DNA of 51,063 nucleotides, taken from a virus. Its lineage: Duplodnaviria; Caudoviricetes. The position numbers and the translations under genes are program-made. Numbering within the stretch: the first letter of the stretch is position 1; each line of letters opens with the position of its first letter. A model generated the notes under the pieces. It had not been told where the DNA came from, searched no databases, and saw only the letters and a list, made by a program, of their open reading frames with translations. The stretch spans positions 1 to 51,063 of the IMG/VR virus record IMGVR_UViG_3300020473_000002; one strand, 5' to 3'. Positions 20,086-23,319 of this stretch are shown here, piece by piece.

Positions 20086-20718
20086 ATGATCATAGTTTTA
20101 GCGCATAACAAAGGCGGGGTGGGTAAAACAACCACCGCTTTAAATTTAACCGAAATATTGGAACCGGACATCGTTATTGATCAAGATGCGCACAGCAACT
20201 TGGTTACACTTAACAGCTTTAGAGCCGACAACGAGCAACTAAACGTATTAAGCGGATTAAGCAAAAACGAGTTAATAGCGCAATTGCAGCAAAGCGAGCA
20301 AGGTAAATTAATACTGGTAGATTGTGGCGGCTTTGATTCTGAGCTAAACCGAATTGCGGTGGCCCTAAGTGATTTGGTTATTGTGCCTGCTAACGACGAC
20401 ATAACCGAAGTGATTGGCCTTAAAAGCTTTGATGAAACACTAAAGCAAATTAGCCGTGATATGGGCGAACCAGTAAACGGCCGTGTGTTGTTTACTCGCG
20501 TACACCCACGCCGCAAAAAGTTTGACGACGTAGAGCAATTTTTAAATAACTCGGCGCATTTATCACGCCTTAACACGACGCTGGCAACGCGTAAAGATTA
20601 CCCACTAGCCGCCAATGACGGCTACGGTGTAACAGCGCATAAAAAAACAAAATACAGTGATGCAGCGCGCGAAGTAACCGCGCTTTCAAACGAAATTAAA
20701 GCATTATTAAATATATAA
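20086..20718 (+). CDS. parA: ParA partition ATPase (short, type Ib-like)
   Basis: KGGVGKTT deviant Walker A; IDQD and LVDC motifs. Confidence 0.93.
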   Translation: MIIVLAHNKGGVGKTTTALNLTEILEPDIVIDQDAHSNLVTLNSFRADNEQLNVLSGLSKNELIAQLQQSEQGKLILVDCGGFDSELNRIAVALSDLVIVPANDDITEVIGLKSFDETLKQISRDMGEPVNGRVLFTRVHPRRKKFDDVEQFLNNSAHLSRLNTTLATRKDYPLAANDGYGVTAHKKTKYSDAAREVTALSNEIKALLNI

Positions 20719-20758
20719 AGCATATGCAAAATATACATATTAAATACTGGGGTAAGTT

Positions 20759-20992
20759 ATGAGTAAGAGTAAGTTCGATAAATTAAACAACGTAGGTAAA
20801 AGCGCCGCTTTGTCTGAACAAAACACAAAGGCGGTTTCAAGCGAATATAAATCAAAACTATTAGGGCGCGTACCTGTCGCCGCGCAAGAAAAACACGCCG
20901 AGCTAAAAGCCCAAGGTAAAACCAGTTTAACGTTTAGCGCTTATATTATTGAAGCGTTAATTGAGAAGTTAGAGCGCGACTTGAACAAGTAG
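20759..20992 (+). CDS. Small ParG-like (RHH) partition partner
   Basis: 77 aa directly downstream of parA; C-terminal TFSAYIIEALIEKL helix. Confidence 0.7.
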   Translation: MSKSKFDKLNNVGKSAALSEQNTKAVSSEYKSKLLGRVPVAAQEKHAELKAQGKTSLTFSAYIIEALIEKLERDLNK

Positions 20993-21061
20993 CGTAAAAA
21001 GTAAAGCCGGTGAACTTCGACCCCCACCGGCTAAATGCAACACTAAAGAGGAAACTTTAAA

Positions 21062-21202
21062 ATGTCACAAGCAAACTATACAGCAATACAAAAAATGCGT
21101 CTAATTGATTTACACACCCTACCAAGCGAGCTGCTATTAGCATGGCTGGCTAGTAAACCCGCATGGCTGCAGGCGGCAGTTATTGGCCGCCAAGCGCATT
21201 AA
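21062..21202 (+). CDS. 46-aa small ORF
   Basis: GAGG SD; MSQANYTAIQKMRLIDLHTLPSELLLAWLASKPAWLQAAVIGRQAH*. Confidence 0.45.
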   Translation: MSQANYTAIQKMRLIDLHTLPSELLLAWLASKPAWLQAAVIGRQAH

Positions 21203-21344
21203 TATTTTTTTGTAGTATTTGGGCGATTTTCAACGCAGCATGATTGGTTGGTAAATCGCCCTCACTTGCTCTTGCAAGTAACACTGCCAACGAATGGGCG
21301 TTCTGTAATGAATCACTAACCTGTGCGTTCTTTTGATTGTCCAT
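21180..21344 (-). CDS. 54-aa small ORF divergent from the HTH regulator
   Basis: AAGGA SD; MDNQKNAQVSDSLQNAHSLAVLLARASEGDLPTNHAALKIAQILQKNINALGGQ*. Confidence 0.65.
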   Translation of the reverse strand: MDNQKNAQVSDSLQNAHSLAVLLARASEGDLPTNHAALKIAQILQKNINALGGQ

Positions 21345-21502
21345 AATATATCCTTGATAACTGCATAATGACCAGTCGAAAATTACACATAAAATAACAA
21401 CAATGCAATAAAAACTTACATTTTGTCAGTTTTTATTCAGGCAAGGTATGTAATTGTAATTAAAGTCGGTTATTATAGCGCCAATATTAATAAGGTATCT
21501 GC

Positions 21503-21928
21503 ATGTTTAAAAAGACACTAACACCCGAACAACAAGCCGTACACGACATAATAGAGCGCGTGTGCTGGGCGCAGGGTGTTAAAAACAAAGCAGCACTTGA
21601 ACGCAAACTCAGACTTAGCGACTCTTTTTGCGCGCAAAAAATAAAGCGCGGCTCAATTCCCTATGCACTACTTGACCAAACAGCCCGCGAAACGCATACA
21701 AGCATAGACCACTTATTATATGGCACCCCCATGGCCCAAATAGACCCAAACGACTTATTGTATATAAAGCAAGGTTTAGTAAAAAGCCTGCGCGAACTTA
21801 GCGAGCAAGGGTTTATTAATAAGGTAAAATGCTTAGAAGATTTAGAGCAGCTTGCCAAAAAACAAGCCGCAGATATAGAGCACGAACTACTTATACAATG
21901 GAATAAAGAGAGTAAAGAGCGCGCCTAG
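21503..21928 (+). CDS. HTH transcription factor (phage 186 CI N-terminal-like)
   Basis: IIERVCWAQGVKNKAALERKLRLS..KRGSIPY..SIDHLLYG. Confidence 0.75.
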   Translation: MFKKTLTPEQQAVHDIIERVCWAQGVKNKAALERKLRLSDSFCAQKIKRGSIPYALLDQTARETHTSIDHLLYGTPMAQIDPNDLLYIKQGLVKSLRELSEQGFINKVKCLEDLEQLAKKQAADIEHELLIQWNKESKERA

Positions 21929-22311
21929 CGCTCTTGGTTAAACTTAGCGTAAATAACTTTATGGTTATTCTTTTTATCGTACTGGTTCATTAACTGGCCT
22001 ATTGATAAATCCTCAGCAGGCGCTTGTATTTCTGCCGGTGTTATTTTTGGCAAATCCACTTGGTAACGCTGCATTGCCGGAAACTTACCCACGATCAGCG
22101 CAATTTCATTTTTAAGCTTTTCGGCTTCATCCATTAGCTGCATCGATTTAGTAAAATCGGTTTCATGCTTAGCATTAATACTTAGCATTATGGCCAGCTC
22201 AGATTTATCGCGTATTTGTTTTTTAAAAATACTATTGCGCGATGCAAGCCAGGTACTTGCCAATAACAGCAAAACCAATACCGCTAACGCGGCGTAAATA
22301 ATATAAATCAC
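21925..22311 (-). CDS. Single-TM anchored protein
   Basis: N-terminal hydrophobic helix; starts 2 bp after the upstream membrane gene. Confidence 0.7.
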   Translation of the reverse strand: MIYIIYAALAVLVLLLLASTWLASRNSIFKKQIRDKSELAIMLSINAKHETDFTKSMQLMDEAEKLKNEIALIVGKFPAMQRYQVDLPKITPAEIQAPAEDLSIGQLMNQYDKKNNHKVIYAKFNQER

Positions 22312-22313
22312 GT

Positions 22314-22892
22314 TTACCCCCTTGGTAACTGCAAACTTAATACACGGCCTGCACGTGTATTCACTAAGCGCGGCAGCAATATAAGCACACCCAGCGCCCC
22401 GCTAATGTAAAGCACTGTAAAACTATACAGGTAATGTAGCACTGCAAACCCTTCTTGAATATCCAAAACCACAAATTTAAACCATAAAATAAAATGCGCC
22501 AGCGCCAATACTAAGGTTAAGCGCAGCACCACAAAAAACAGCCCGCCGTATTTGTAGCTAAAACGTATATGTAATCTATACACAATGAATATACTTAATA
22601 TATTAAATGCACATAAACCTAAATAAACGTTTTGCGCTAAATCGCCGCGCTGGGTGTTAGCTAAAAACATTAGGGCGCGTTCCATTAACAATGTGGTAAG
22701 CATGTATTTAGACACCACCACCGCTATACATAAAAAATCACTAAACAATTCGCGCTGTCGCATCGCTCTGAATAACGACAAAGCTAACGCCAAAACATAA
22801 ACCAGCGAAATAAGCACCTGTATAGAAAATACATTATGGTTGGCCGTGGCGACCAAAAGCGAGTTGTAAATATTTGAAAGGGTATTAACCAT
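22314..22892 (-). CDS. Polytopic membrane protein (about 5-6 TM)
   Basis: Multiple hydrophobic segments; AAGGA SD favours ATG 22892. Confidence 0.8.
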   Translation of the reverse strand: MVNTLSNIYNSLLVATANHNVFSIQVLISLVYVLALALSLFRAMRQRELFSDFLCIAVVVSKYMLTTLLMERALMFLANTQRGDLAQNVYLGLCAFNILSIFIVYRLHIRFSYKYGGLFFVVLRLTLVLALAHFILWFKFVVLDIQEGFAVLHYLYSFTVLYISGALGVLILLPRLVNTRAGRVLSLQLPRG

Positions 22893-22934
22893 ATTCATTC
22901 CTTGAGTAAGGCGTAAGAATACAATTTTGCCCAT

Positions 22935-22958
22935 AAAAAAACCAGCTAATTAGCTGGC
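22935..22958 (-). terminator. Hairpin plus T-run between the peptide and membrane genes
   Basis: CCAGCTA-at-TAGCTGG followed by T7. Confidence 0.65.
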
Positions 22959-22970
22959 TTAATTTTAGGC

Positions 22971-23144
22971 TTACTTTGGTTTTTTTGGGTTTAAAATAAT
23001 AATACCGCCTGACCCTTGTATTTTTGGTTTTGGTTTAGGGTTTAAAATAATAATGCCACCCGAGCCTTTTAATTGTTCTGTGCTTACGTTCGCTGGGGTT
23101 ACGTCTGCTGATAGTGCGCTTACTAATAATAATGAAAGTGTCAT
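22971..23144 (-). CDS. 57-aa putative secreted peptide precursor with duplicated GSGGIIILNPK core (not in ORF track)
   Basis: AAGGAG SD; MTLSLLLVSALSADVTPANVSTEQLKGSGGIIILNPKPKPKIQGSGGIIILNPKKPK*. Confidence 0.85.
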   Translation of the reverse strand: MTLSLLLVSALSADVTPANVSTEQLKGSGGIIILNPKPKPKIQGSGGIIILNPKKPK

Positions 23145-23319
23145 TTTTTTGCTCCTTAAAATAGTTAAGTGAGCATTAGCAGGGTTCGTGCCAATATAAA
23201 CGCCTGAAATAAAACAACACTCTAGGGTAAACCCTAGGGTTTATTAAATTAGCATTGCACAACGCGCAATATGTAAACTTTAGCGATAACAAAACAACTC
23301 TAAAGTTTAAGCAGGCACC

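What the first reader, a model, noticed from the sequence alone, without database searches (positions are those of the whole stretch)
21925..23144. Candidate phage peptide-signalling cassette: secreted tandem-core peptide plus polytopic membrane protein
Seen: an unannotated 57-aa ORF (23144-22971) has a strong AAGGAG SD, a short hydrophobic signal-like N-terminus (MTLSLLLVSALSA) and two identical GSGGIIILNPK cores flanked by Lys/Pro spacers. The two cores differ at synonymous codons (GGC TCG GGT GGC vs GGG TCA GGC GGT), which suggests selection on the peptide. A hairpin/T-run follows, then a 5-6 TM protein and a single-TM protein. Known: repeated cores behind a signal peptide are typical of pheromone/quorum-sensing precursors, and Bacillus phages use the AimP peptide for lysis-lysogeny decisions. 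Inference: this may be a Gram-negative phage communication system with a membrane receptor. A peptide toxin/immunity or exclusion pair is the alternative. No modifying enzymes are nearby.
Basis: partly seen in the sequence, partly recalled or inferred. Interest (0 to 1): 0.85.

Follow-up and report, generated by a model that had tools for sequence, protein, structure and literature searches.

The report
Polymorphic secreted-peptide and membrane-sensor module
A small exported peptide carrying two identical cores, a five-helix membrane protein that co-varies with it, a single-span protein and a repressor-like regulator form a conserved four-gene module in Pseudoalteromonas and their plasmid-like phages, most likely a peptide-sensing switch of a type not described in Gram-negative bacteria.

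Summary
The 57-aa ORF is a real gene: relatives in 27 protein clusters and in all 34 close loci lie directly upstream of the membrane-protein gene. Its two cores stay identical (22 of 27 clusters) although their codons differ (96 synonymous vs 11 non-synonymous codon differences).

The unit is a four-gene module: peptide, 5-TM protein (N-out), bitopic protein and a convergent CI-type HTH regulator. In 140 Pseudoalteromonas genomes, membrane protein and regulator co-occur at the same 17 places. Twelve of these are chromosomal, between exonuclease I and a transporter gene, so the module is not phage-specific.

A conserved sigma-54 promoter (22 of 23 loci) drives the peptide gene, and a terminator follows it (20 of 23). 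The peptide core and the membrane protein are hypervariable; the bitopic protein and regulator are conserved. Core divergence tracks only the two predicted periplasmic segments of the membrane protein. Distant homologous cassettes have 1 to 6 cores, and in two of them the third gene is a membrane-anchored AraC regulator.

Best reading (0.45): an exported peptide ligand with a cognate receptor controlling a transcription factor. In this phage it abuts a par-linked TF-smORF switch. A peptide toxin with immunity remains a serious rival. No component matches a known family.

The parts
23274..23309 (-). Inverted repeat TAAACTTTAG / CTAAAGTTTA upstream of the promoter. Candidate regulator or enhancer site, or a resolvase site. 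Function unknown.
   Evidence: I25; conserved among the phage-plasmid loci in alignment A5; not present in the chromosomal loci
23222..23237 (-). Palindrome CTAGGGTTTACCCTAG, about 30 nt upstream of the -24 element
   Evidence: conserved in 7 of 7 phage-plasmid loci aligned
23178..23193 (-). Sigma-54 type -24/-12 promoter element TGGCACGAACCCTGCT. It ends 33 nt before the ATG.
   Evidence: TGGC and TGCT are invariant at fixed spacing in 10 of 10 aligned upstream regions. The motif lies within 90 nt upstream in 22 of 23 distinct loci.
23152..23157 (-). Shine-Dalgarno AAGGAG of the peptide gene
   Evidence: AAGGA is invariant
22971..23144 (-). Precursor peptide gene, 57 aa. Hydrophobic leader (residues 1-18, candidate cleavage after TPA), pro-region, then two cores.
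23034..23066 (-). Core 1, GSGGIIILNPK (residues 27-37)
22983..23015 (-). Core 2, GSGGIIILNPK (residues 44-54). Same peptide as core 1, encoded by different codons.
22932..22960 (-). Intrinsic-terminator-like hairpin (CCAGCT-AATT-AGCTGG core) plus T7, between the peptide gene and the membrane gene
   Evidence: A perfect-stem hairpin plus T-run is present in 20 of 23 distinct loci.
22314..22892 (-). Polytopic membrane protein, 192 aa. 5 TM, N-terminus periplasmic, C-terminus cytoplasmic. Conserved LY(K/R)LH motif. It is the hypervariable partner of the peptide.
21925..22311 (-). Bitopic protein, 128 aa. N-terminal TM, cytoplasmic helical hairpin, disordered linker, conserved C-terminal LS(I/L)G(Q/E)L..Y motif. 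Its start lies 2 nt after the membrane gene's stop.
21915..21935 (.). Hairpin AAGAGCGC-TAGGC-GCGCTCTT at the junction of the two convergent genes
21503..21928 (+). CI-type HTH regulator, 141 aa, convergent with the cassette and overlapping its end by 4 nt. It is the fourth gene of the module.
   Evidence: Pfam Phage_CI_repr 7e-7. Present in all loci. Its 17 strong places in 140 genomes coincide with the 17 places of the membrane gene.
21180..21344 (-). 54-aa small ORF divergent from the regulator. Context only: found in the phage-plasmid loci. Candidate smORF of a par-linked TF-smORF switch.
   Evidence: no Pfam family

Best explanation
The finding is one copy of a four-gene module: a peptide ligand, a receptor, a transducer and a regulator.

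Proposed mechanism:
1. A sigma-54 promoter, which needs an unidentified host enhancer-binding activator, transcribes a 57-aa precursor.
2. Most transcripts stop at the hairpin after the peptide gene. Read-through supplies the two membrane proteins.
3. The precursor is exported through its hydrophobic leader.
4. Its two identical cores, (G/N)(S/T)GG-I(I/V)I-xxx-K, act as separate copies of one ligand, either released by proteolysis or acting bivalently.
5. The ligand is recognised on the periplasmic face (N-terminal segment and TM2-TM3 loop) of the cognate 5-TM protein.
6. That protein acts through the translationally coupled bitopic protein, whose cytoplasmic tail controls the CI-type HTH regulator encoded next door, for example by holding it at the membrane or releasing it.
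7. Peptide and receptor diversify together into specificity types. Transducer and regulator stay constant.
8. In this phage-plasmid the regulator sits divergent from a 54-aa ORF beside parA. This is the layout of TF-smORF induction switches, so the peptide could be the missing input of such a switch.

Shown: gene reality, linkage, selection on core identity, hypervariability pattern, segment-specific co-variation, promoter and terminator conservation, regulator co-occurrence, and membrane-anchored regulator variants.

Inferred: export, processing, binding, direction of signalling, and any effect on phage induction.
For: 1. Real, selected peptide.
- 27 clusters of 53-60 aa, each with two core matches; in two of them (P0079, P0080) the two cores are of different types.
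- 22 of 27 have identical 10-residue cores. Mean difference is 0.33 within a precursor against 2.60 between precursors.
- Between the two copies, 96 codons differ synonymously and 11 non-synonymously, out of 204 codon pairs in 17 sequences. Eight of the 11 lie at the position before the core. DNA homogenisation therefore does not explain the identity.

2. Obligate linkage in the close family: 17 of 17 loci and 17 of 17 strong genomic places.

3. Specificity pair.
- At one chromosomal site, L014 vs L018 are 97% (bitopic) and 99% (regulator) identical, but 49% (membrane protein) and 70% (peptide).
- L003 vs L008 give 99, 97, 75 and 78%.
- DNA identity falls to 0.58-0.75 exactly over the core region plus the membrane gene, between flanks mostly at 0.79-0.96.

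4. Co-variation.
- Core distance correlates with the membrane protein's N-terminal segment (r 0.37, Mantel p about 0.0005) and with the TM2-3 loop (r 0.45, p about 0.0005). Both are predicted periplasmic.
- It does not correlate with TM1, loop 1-2 or TM2 that lie between them (0.13, -0.10, 0.04), nor with the equally variable C-terminus (0.00).

5. Cores as units. Homologous cassettes (hhalign 96.9%, E 1.6e-10) have 1, 2, 3, 4, 5 or 6 cores. Several have canonical signal peptides.

6. Link to transcription.
- Strong regulator homologues occur at 17 places in 15 of 140 genomes, the same places as the cassette, plus one weak extra hit.
- A CI-type or XRE-type HTH gene also neighbours several distant cassettes.
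- In L045 and L051 the third gene is a TM segment plus an AraC-type HTH (HTH_18 at 35.1 and 49.2 bits, both above the 33.6 cut-off).

7. Regulated expression.
- A sigma-54 element is present in 22 of 23 loci and a terminator in 20 of 23.
- rpoN is present in 5 of 5 host genomes tested.

8. Orthogonality. Both genomes that carry two close modules carry different core types: IVIMPPKK with IIILNPKK, and IVIMPPKK with IVILVP(P)KK.

9. Layout. ParA, orf77, the 54-aa ORF and the TF match the par-associated TF-smORF modules whose natural input is unknown (passages read in PMC10432266).
Against: - No experiment or mass spectrum shows export, cleavage or binding.
- The leader has no basic n-region residue.
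- Some distant precursors (L022-L024, L053, L054) have no hydrophobic leader at all.
- The membrane protein has no recognisable signalling or enzymatic domain and no fused forms.
- A peptide of this size must cross the outer membrane twice to act between cells.
- The Mantel tests use 22 related alleles, so the p-values are inflated by shared ancestry. Only the contrast between segments is an internal control.
- Apart from a 22-column LSLGEL motif match, the AraC-fused proteins are not statistically homologous to the bitopic family (hhalign probability 5%). The fusion argument therefore rests on gene position.
- 8 of 21 distant homologues have no evident upstream peptide, and only 7 of 21 have a bitopic gene.
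- Features typical of toxin-immunity loci exist. These are displaced 3' remnants of an older membrane-gene allele and one genome with 8 paralogues next to GG-leader-like, Cys-tailed peptides.
- The chromosomal copies have no smORF, so the output there is unknown.
Confidence: 0.45

Rival explanations
1. Peptide toxin (bacteriocin or cannibalism-type) with a cognate membrane immunity protein. The exported cationic, Ile-rich peptide damages cells that lack the matching 5-TM protein. The bitopic protein and regulator adjust immunity expression. This may work like SdpC-SdpI-SdpR of Bacillus subtilis, where the immunity protein also sequesters the repressor (recalled, not read here).
For: - The hypervariable peptide plus membrane-protein pair exchanges as a unit.
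- A roughly 35-aa remnant of a displaced membrane-gene 3' end is left in L010 and L013-L017, as at polymorphic toxin-immunity loci.
- One genome holds 8 paralogues, two in tandem, beside GG-leader-like peptides with Cys-containing tails.
- Some distant membrane homologues stand without a peptide (8 of 21), as orphan immunity genes would.
- The mature peptide is cationic with hydrophobic strands.
Against: - Cores are only 8-11 residues and vary in copy number from 1 to 6. This is unusual for pore-forming bacteriocins.
- No exporter, C39 peptidase or modification gene lies nearby.
- In the close family no orphan membrane gene was found (0 of 34 loci examined).
- The tight coupling to a regulator and the membrane-anchored AraC variants point to signalling, although Sdp-type systems combine both functions.
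Confidence: 0.28
2. Superinfection-exclusion or anti-phage defence module. The membrane proteins block DNA entry or abort infection. The peptide is an accessory periplasmic factor. The variability reflects an arms race with phages.
For: - It lies in the accessory region next to regulators in phage-plasmids, where exclusion genes often sit.
- It also occurs in an integrase island and as an insertion at a chromosomal site.
- It has a patchy distribution, in 19 of 140 genus genomes.
- It is hypervariable.
Against: - No PADLOC, PHROG or Pfam match.
- A secreted multi-copy peptide whose copies are kept identical has no precedent in exclusion systems.
- Co-variation runs between the peptide and its own membrane partner, not with an external target.
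- Sigma-54 dependence implies that it is off by default.
Confidence: 0.1
3. The small ORF is a cis-acting leader peptide. Ribosome pausing at the Ile runs or the Pro-Lys stretches modulates the downstream terminator and so controls expression of the membrane genes. The peptide itself has no function.
For: - Two Ile-Ile-Ile runs lie directly upstream of an intrinsic terminator that precedes the membrane genes.
- Terminator conservation in 20 of 23 loci.
Against: - No alternative antiterminator pairing stands out in the fold.
- There is no Rfam element.
- The variable residues of the core change in concert in both copies and with periplasmic segments of the membrane protein.
- Distant homologues have Gly/Pro/Glu cores without Ile.
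- The hydrophobic leader is conserved.
Confidence: 0.04

Closest known systems
agr (AgrB-AgrD-AgrC-AgrA) and comQXPA pherotype loci of Gram-positive bacteria (recalled knowledge)
   Same: A small precursor peptide sits beside a roughly 190-aa polytopic membrane protein. A hypervariable segment covers the peptide and its membrane partner, while the downstream transduction genes stay conserved. There are several specificity types within one genus.
   Different: There is no homology (the Pfam scan gave no AgrB or other family). The peptide has no Cys for a thiolactone. There is no histidine kinase or response regulator. The host is Gram-negative. The cores are tandem and identical. The output is a bitopic protein plus a CI-type HTH. 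The promoter is sigma-54 dependent.
SdpC-SdpI-SdpR three-protein pathway of Bacillus subtilis
   Same: An exported peptide, a polytopic membrane protein of about 200 aa that recognises it, and a small repressor whose activity is set at the membrane. This logic unites the signalling and immunity readings.
   Different: There is no SdpI-family or ArsR-family match. Here an extra bitopic protein is present. The regulator is CI-type and convergent. The peptide is a short tandem-core product rather than a 42-aa toxin.
Arbitrium (AimP-AimR-AimX) of Bacillus phages (abstracts in listings and review passages)
   Same: A phage-carried short precursor with a leader and a C-terminal mature unit. It diversifies into specificity codes and lies next to lysis-lysogeny control genes.
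   Different: There is no AimR-like cytoplasmic TPR receptor. The candidate receptor is a membrane protein. There are two cores. Most copies are chromosomal rather than phage-borne. The passages read name only Gram-positive (Bacillus/Bacillales) hosts for arbitrium-type peptide modules.
TF-smORF induction modules of plasmid-like phages (Silpe et al., Nature 2023, PMC10432266; passages read)
   Same: A transcription factor is divergent from a small ORF of about 55 aa, placed beside partition genes of a plasmid-like phage. The natural signal controlling the TF is unknown in that work.
   Different: Homology of this TF to TF63/TF72 could not be tested (tblastn against the phage collection found nothing). 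No peptide or membrane cassette is mentioned in that paper ('membrane' 0 and 'peptide' 0 occurrences). The chromosomal copies of the module lack the smORF.
Membrane-anchored one-component regulators (ToxR/TcpP/CadC type; recalled)
   Same: In L045 and L051 the third gene encodes one TM segment plus a cytoplasmic DNA-binding domain. The accessory membrane partner is encoded beside it.
   Different: The HTH is AraC-type and C-terminal. There is almost no periplasmic domain, so sensing must be done by the 5-TM partner. In the window the DNA-binding protein is a separate gene.
Class II (double-glycine leader) bacteriocins with membrane immunity proteins (recalled)
   Same: Small peptide genes lie next to small polytopic membrane proteins. 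A Gly-Gly pair precedes each core. GG-leader-like precursors occur in the distant paralogues of genome G154.
   Different: No ABC transporter with a C39 peptidase is nearby. The window peptide has a Sec-like leader. The cores are very short and repeated.

Membership tests
Sec-type signal peptide | Basic n-region, hydrophobic h-region of 7-15 residues, c-region with small residues at -3 and -1 | tested here: inconclusive
   The h-region LSLLLVSALSA and a conserved (T/A)P(A/T) site are present, but there is no Lys or Arg in the n-region. No predictor was available. Distant homologues L045, L047, L051, L026, L027, L064 and L068 have canonical leaders with basic residues.
Sigma-54 dependent promoter | GG at -24 and GC at -12 with fixed spacing (TGGCAC-N5-TTGCW; consensus recalled) | tested here: met
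   The element TGGCACGAACCCTGCT lies at 23193-23178. TGGC and TGCT are invariant in 10 of 10 aligned loci, and the motif is present in 22 of 23 distinct loci. The loose pattern alone is not rare: 5 matches in the window against 2.5 in shuffles. The evidence is therefore its conservation and position.
Sigma-54 dependent promoter | A cognate AAA+ enhancer-binding activator | tested here: not met
   There is no PF00158 match in the phage record and no such gene among the ORFs scanned beside the module. A host activator is presumed. rpoN is present in 5 of 5 host genomes.
Arbitrium (AimP/AimR) | AimR-type HTH-TPR cytoplasmic receptor encoded next to the peptide gene | tested here: not met
   The Pfam and PHROG scans of all neighbours show only a 141-aa CI-type HTH with no TPR.
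agr (AgrB/AgrD) | AgrB-family membrane peptidase, and a Cys in the peptide for thiolactone formation | tested here: not met
   There is no Pfam family for the membrane protein at E up to 0.1. The peptide has no Cys.
Double-glycine leader peptide with PCAT exporter | C39-peptidase ABC transporter in the locus | tested here: not met
   None is among the ORFs within about 4 kb in the window or in the chromosomal loci. The rest of the host genomes was not searched.
TF-smORF prophage induction module (Silpe et al. 2023) | A TF divergent from a small ORF in a plasmid-like phage; the TF activates the smORF; the smORF inactivates cI | tested here: inconclusive
   The layout is met: ParA 20086-20718, orf77, the 54-aa ORF 21344-21180 and the TF 21503-21928. 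The layout is conserved in 9 phage-plasmid loci (8 distinct contigs). Activity is not testable here. Homology to the published TFs was not testable.
Known anti-phage defence systems (PADLOC-DB 2.0) | A match to any defence protein model | tested here: not met
   0 families for all three cassette proteins at E up to 1.
RiPP biosynthetic cluster with multi-core precursor | A modifying enzyme or dedicated protease next to the precursor gene | tested here: not met
   No enzyme family was found in the module or its flanks. A catalytic role for the 5-TM protein itself cannot be excluded.

The most novel reading that the evidence does not exclude
Pseudoalteromonas and their plasmid-like phages use ribosomally made, Sec-exported, multi-copy short peptides as type-specific extracellular signals. 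A new family of 5-TM receptors reads them and, through a bitopic adaptor, gates a CI-type transcription factor. In the phage this factor fires a TF-smORF induction switch. If so, this would be the first peptide 'arbitrium-like' communication in Gram-negative phages, with host chromosomal modules and phage modules speaking different dialects in the same cell.
Probability: 0.2. Interest if true: 0.95.

Novelty: new variant of a known kind. Interest (0 to 1): 0.8.

Why it matters
- In the review passages I read (PMC13389391), phage peptide communication is described only for Gram-positive (Bacillus/Bacillales) hosts. That peptide-based cell signalling is almost unknown in Gram-negative bacteria is recalled knowledge.
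- This module has the genetic signature of a pherotype system: a co-diversifying peptide and membrane partner, with conserved downstream components and a dedicated regulator. It is built from protein families with no known relatives.
- It sits in a phage-plasmid beside the kind of TF-smORF switch whose natural input is an open question (PMC10432266, passages). It therefore offers a concrete, testable candidate input.
- If the peptide instead proves to be a toxin with a signalling immunity protein, it would still be a new Gram-negative family with Sdp-like logic.
- Natural allele pairs share the transducer and regulator but differ in peptide and receptor (for example L014 and L018). They are ready-made specificity-swap experiments.

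Tried and rejected
**Database look-ups that gave nothing**
- megablast and tblastn of the region, membrane protein and regulator against the phage and plasmid collections.
- Pfam, PHROGs, NCBIfam and PADLOC for the three cassette proteins. The only hit was a 0.016 PHROG hit of unknown function for the peptide.
- Pfam for the distant precursors and membrane proteins.
- PDB by sequence profile.
- Foldseek against PDB with the AlphaFold2 model: best E 1.5.
- ESM Atlas: only unnamed clusters and one automatically named MreD cluster at 0.92, treated as noise.
- Rfam.
- Search for longer, fused forms of the membrane protein (the tool itself calls this weak evidence).
- Earlier scan notes by sequence and by words.

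**Co-folding.** The membrane protein with residues 19-57 of the peptide (complex prediction) returned 'no answer' (score 0.00). It is evidence neither way.

**RNA.** Contigs of four RNA-library runs from four studies cover parts of the regulator, bitopic and membrane genes. They also cover 58 nt of the peptide gene of a relative allele, at depth 1-4. DNA carry-over cannot be excluded, so this is not used as evidence of expression.

**Other negative or weak tests**
- Shared operator between the regulator's promoter and the peptide promoter: only one weak 16-nt inverted match (I8), and it lies inside the resolvase gene. Not pursued.
- Sigma-54 motif upstream of the distant cassettes: not found convincingly.
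- Homology of the AraC-fused third genes to the bitopic family: only a 22-column motif match.
- A FlgM-like look of the leaderless precursors (L022-L024, L053, L054) is a recollection only. Pfam gave no FlgM match.

**Literature.** Five full-text searches found no description of this module. I saw listings and abstracts only, plus passages of PMC10432266 and PMC13389391. Supplementary tables of PMC10432266 (the lists of TF homologues) were not seen and could bear on the TF comparison.

**Rejected readings**
- Chance ORF, rejected on conservation and selection.
- RiPP cluster, because there are no enzymes.
- Sortase or rhombosortase-type sorting signal, because the hydrophobic stretch of 4 residues is too short and is repeated.


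Full report
**1. What is there**

The window is a complete 51,063-bp virus record with terminal repeats. It carries a ParA-type partition gene, a serine recombinase and phage structural genes, so it is a plasmid-like temperate phage. Names on homologues point to a Pseudoalteromonas host.

- a 57-aa ORF at 23144-22971, behind AAGGAG;
- a hydrophobic N-terminus;
- two GSGGIIILNPK cores separated by PKPKIQ and followed by KPK;
- a hairpin plus T-run at 22960-22932;
- a polytopic membrane ORF;
- a 128-aa ORF with one N-terminal TM helix, starting 2 nt after the membrane gene's stop.

The membrane gene probably starts at 22892 (192 aa). Most homologues start there, and that ATG and its AAGGA are conserved. 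The cassette ends 4 nt inside the end of a convergent 141-aa gene with a phage CI-type HTH (Pfam 7e-7).

**2. The peptide gene is real and selected at the peptide level**

A search of 5.8 billion proteins found 27 clusters of 53-60 aa. Each has the same leader and two core matches; in two clusters (P0079, P0080) the two cores are of different types.

The core differs between lineages: IIILNPK, IIIIKDPK, IVIIKEKK, IVIIKRPK, IVIMPPKK, IVILVPKK, IVIIRKKK, and prefixes GS, GT, NS, NT. Within a precursor the two 10-residue cores are identical in 22 of 27 clusters. Mean differences are 0.33 within a precursor and 2.60 between core 1 of one precursor and core 2 of another.

This is not DNA homogenisation. 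Over a 12-codon unit in 17 sequences, the two copies differ at 96 codons synonymously and at 11 non-synonymously. Eight of the 11 fall at the residue before the core, and up to 9 of 36 nucleotides differ. Two clusters (P0079, P0080) are hybrids with two different cores.

**3. Linkage and extent of the unit**

The peptide gene, membrane gene and bitopic gene occur in this order in two sets of loci:
- all 17 loci fetched with the membrane protein from viral and genome collections, two of which are the same contig;
- all 17 strong places found in 140 Pseudoalteromonas species genomes.

A tblastn map shows that the convergent CI-type regulator is also always present, even where the phage-plasmid backbone (recombinase, ParA) is absent.

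Searching the same 140 genomes with the regulator gave 17 strong places in 15 genomes. They are the same contigs and neighbouring coordinates as the membrane gene. One weak extra hit lay elsewhere. The unit is therefore a four-gene module.

Of the 17 genomic copies:
- 12 lie at one chromosomal site, between exonuclease I and an Sbt-type transporter gene, with housekeeping neighbours and no phage genes;
- 3 lie next to the recombinase, as in the window;
- 2 lie in an integrase island.

**4. Expression signals**

Upstream of the peptide gene the only invariant bases across phage, island and chromosomal loci are:
- TGGC and TGCT, eight bases apart, ending 33-46 nt before the ATG;
- the ribosome-binding site and the start codon.

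This matches the sigma-54 -24/-12 consensus as I recall it. It is present in 22 of 23 distinct loci. The exception is a contig-end fragment. The loose pattern by itself is not rare, so the argument is conservation in place.

The phage has no enhancer-binding ATPase. The hosts have rpoN. The hairpin and T-run after the peptide gene are kept in 20 of 23 loci, with a conserved CCAGC/GCTGG stem and variable loops.

This layout, a strong small-gene transcript with partial read-through, is inferred. It is not shown.

**5. A specificity pair joined to constant downstream parts**

At the chromosomal site, alleles that share a 97-99% identical bitopic protein and regulator have membrane proteins only 48-49% identical, and different cores (L014 vs L018). 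In the phage-plasmids, L003 and L008 share 99% and 97% but differ in membrane protein (75%) and core.

A sliding window over seven chromosomal loci puts the low-identity block (0.58-0.75) exactly over the core-coding part of the peptide gene plus the membrane gene. The leader and promoter on one side are at 0.87-0.89. The region on the other side is mostly at 0.79-0.96.

In L010 and L013-L017, a roughly 35-aa remnant identical to the C-terminus of the L018-type membrane protein lies behind the resident membrane gene. This is a scar of allele replacement.

Both genomes that hold two close modules hold different core types.

**6. Where the membrane protein varies with the peptide**

Charge counts over 14 homologues support a 5-TM topology with the N-terminus out and the C-terminus in:
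- 2.9, 1.6 and 3.1 Lys+Arg in the alternate segments assigned to the cytoplasm;
- 1.2, 0.5 and 0 in those assigned to the periplasm.

For 22 distinct peptide and membrane pairs, core distance correlates with divergence of two segments:
- the N-terminal 22 residues (r 0.37);
- the TM2-TM3 loop (r 0.45).

Both have Mantel p about 0.0005. There is no correlation with TM1, loop 1-2 or TM2 that separate these segments (0.13, -0.10, 0.04), with the third outer loop (0.03), or with the equally variable C-terminus (0.00).

The table shows the classes:
- K/R-E/D/K cores go with ..EN....N.Q loops;
- PPK cores go with AETGNWHSAQ;
- NS/NT-prefixed cores go with ..H.SAASAQ and the KWLVIKPYT N-terminus.

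Shared ancestry inflates the p-values. The contrast between neighbouring segments is the informative part. It argues against simple linkage, since the loop lies further from the peptide gene than TM1 and TM2.

**7. The wider family**

A profile search of 1.84 billion representatives found only 20 clusters. Genome searches found weak hits whose synteny is the same. Profile-profile comparison confirms homology: 96.9%, E 1.6e-10, 142 columns, with a shared LY(K/R)LH motif.

Their upstream small genes end in Gly-rich cores of related type, in different copy numbers:

| Cores | Loci |
|---|---|
| 1 | L046, L047, L048, L051, L054, L056, L063, L065 |
| 2 | L024 |
| 3 | L053 |
| 4 | L045 |
| 5 | L023, L064 |
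| 6 | L022, L068 |

Examples of cores are GGGVIIPKKEN, GNGAGIEPPK and GGQGGGVEPVA. Several precursors have textbook signal peptides. Cores thus behave as countable units.

Many of these cassettes also have a bitopic gene (7 of 21) and a neighbouring CI-type or XRE-type HTH gene. In two cassettes of one genome (L045, L051) the third gene encodes one TM helix followed by an AraC-type HTH above Pfam's cut-off.

By position this links the bitopic protein to DNA binding. By sequence, only the LSLGEL..Y motif is shared.

Against uniformity:
- 8 of 21 distant homologues show no upstream peptide;
- some precursors lack a hydrophobic leader;
- one genome has 8 paralogues beside GG-leader-like, Cys-tailed peptides.

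These look more like bacteriocin-immunity arrays.

**8. Structure and families**

- AlphaFold2 gives a helical bundle for the membrane protein (pLDDT 74) with no PDB neighbour.
- The bitopic protein is a TM helix running into a long cytoplasmic helix, a second helix, a disordered linker and a short conserved C-terminal helical motif.
- No Pfam, NCBIfam, PHROG, PADLOC or PDB relative exists for any of the three.

**9. Reading**

The data fit best a ligand, receptor, transducer and regulator chain with co-diversifying ligand and receptor. This is the genetic pattern of agr or comQXPA pherotypes, and of the SdpC-SdpI-SdpR pathway (both recalled).

In the phage, the order ParA, orf77, 54-aa ORF, TF matches the par-associated TF-smORF induction modules of plasmid-like Vibrio phages. 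Their authors could not find the natural inducer (passages). The cassette is a candidate input for such a switch.

I give the signalling chain 0.45, toxin-immunity (possibly with Sdp-like signalling) 0.28, exclusion or defence 0.10, a cis-acting leader peptide 0.04, and the rest to unknown envelope functions.

**10. Novelty**

Five literature searches found no description. Passages of a 2026 review name only Gram-positive (Bacillus/Bacillales) hosts for arbitrium-type phage peptide modules. The earlier scan had noted the neighbouring TF and small-ORF pair on this window but nothing similar elsewhere.

I class it as a new variant of a known kind (a polymorphic exported peptide with a cognate membrane partner), built from unknown families. 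Interest is high because it is unexpected in Gram-negative bacteria and directly testable.

Noticed in passing
L010 4644-4721; L013 4586-4696; L014 4590-4697; L015 4590-4697; L016 4614-4721; L017 4623-4733: A short ORF (25-36 aa) between the membrane gene and the bitopic gene repeats the C-terminal 25 residues of the L018-type membrane protein. It is a remnant left by replacement of the peptide plus membrane allele.
   Followed up: partly
L055, L069-L075 (genome G154): One Pseudoalteromonas genome holds 8 distant paralogues of the membrane protein, two of them in tandem. Three have upstream peptides with a Lys-rich leader ending in ..V/I-G-G-G and a tail ending in Cys-containing YWP..C motifs. 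This looks like a double-glycine-leader bacteriocin or RiPP precursor.
   Followed up: no
L022 1965-2375(-); L023 1041-1430; L053 1135-1473; L064 946-1323; L068 1169-1471: Precursors with 3-6 perfect tandem cores (LGNGSGNEPPITKA x6, GNGEGIEPPKTV x5, GNGAGIEPPK x3, GSGNGSNGGGGVEP x5, VGGQGGGVEPVA x6) lie upstream of distant homologues of the membrane protein. Those of L022, L023 and L053 have no hydrophobic leader. Their N-terminal region (..DSVQISEQAK..) reminded me of FlgM, but Pfam gave no such match.
   Followed up: partly
L006 3549-4610 and L007 3122-4248: The integrase islands carry a second, different cassette directly after the first. It has a 35-36 aa peptide ending GGGGDGVEPPS, a 182-aa membrane protein and a 114-aa bitopic protein, followed further on by an XRE-type HTH gene.
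   Followed up: partly
window 20086-21928: ParA, a 77-aa ORF (phrog_19714), a 54-aa ORF and the divergent 141-aa HTH form the layout of par-associated TF-smORF induction modules described for Vibrio plasmid-like phages. The 54-aa ORF is conserved (41-76% identity) only in the phage-plasmid loci.
   Followed up: partly
window 23222-23309: Four copies of a CT(C/T)TAG(A/G)GT-like motif are arranged as two inverted pairs between the recombinase gene and the sigma-54 promoter. They are conserved in the phage-plasmid loci only. They could be a recombinase site or a regulator site.
   Followed up: no
P0079, P0080 (metagenomic peptide clusters): Hybrid precursors carry two different cores (IVILVPPKK or IVILPPKK first, IIILNPKK second). 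They could be recombinants or intermediates in a change of core type.
   Followed up: no
L052 1271-4522 (genome G472): A 1083-aa secreted protein with repeated fibronectin-like modules and a C-terminal metalloprotease-like HELGH motif lies directly upstream of the four-core cassette L045.
   Followed up: no
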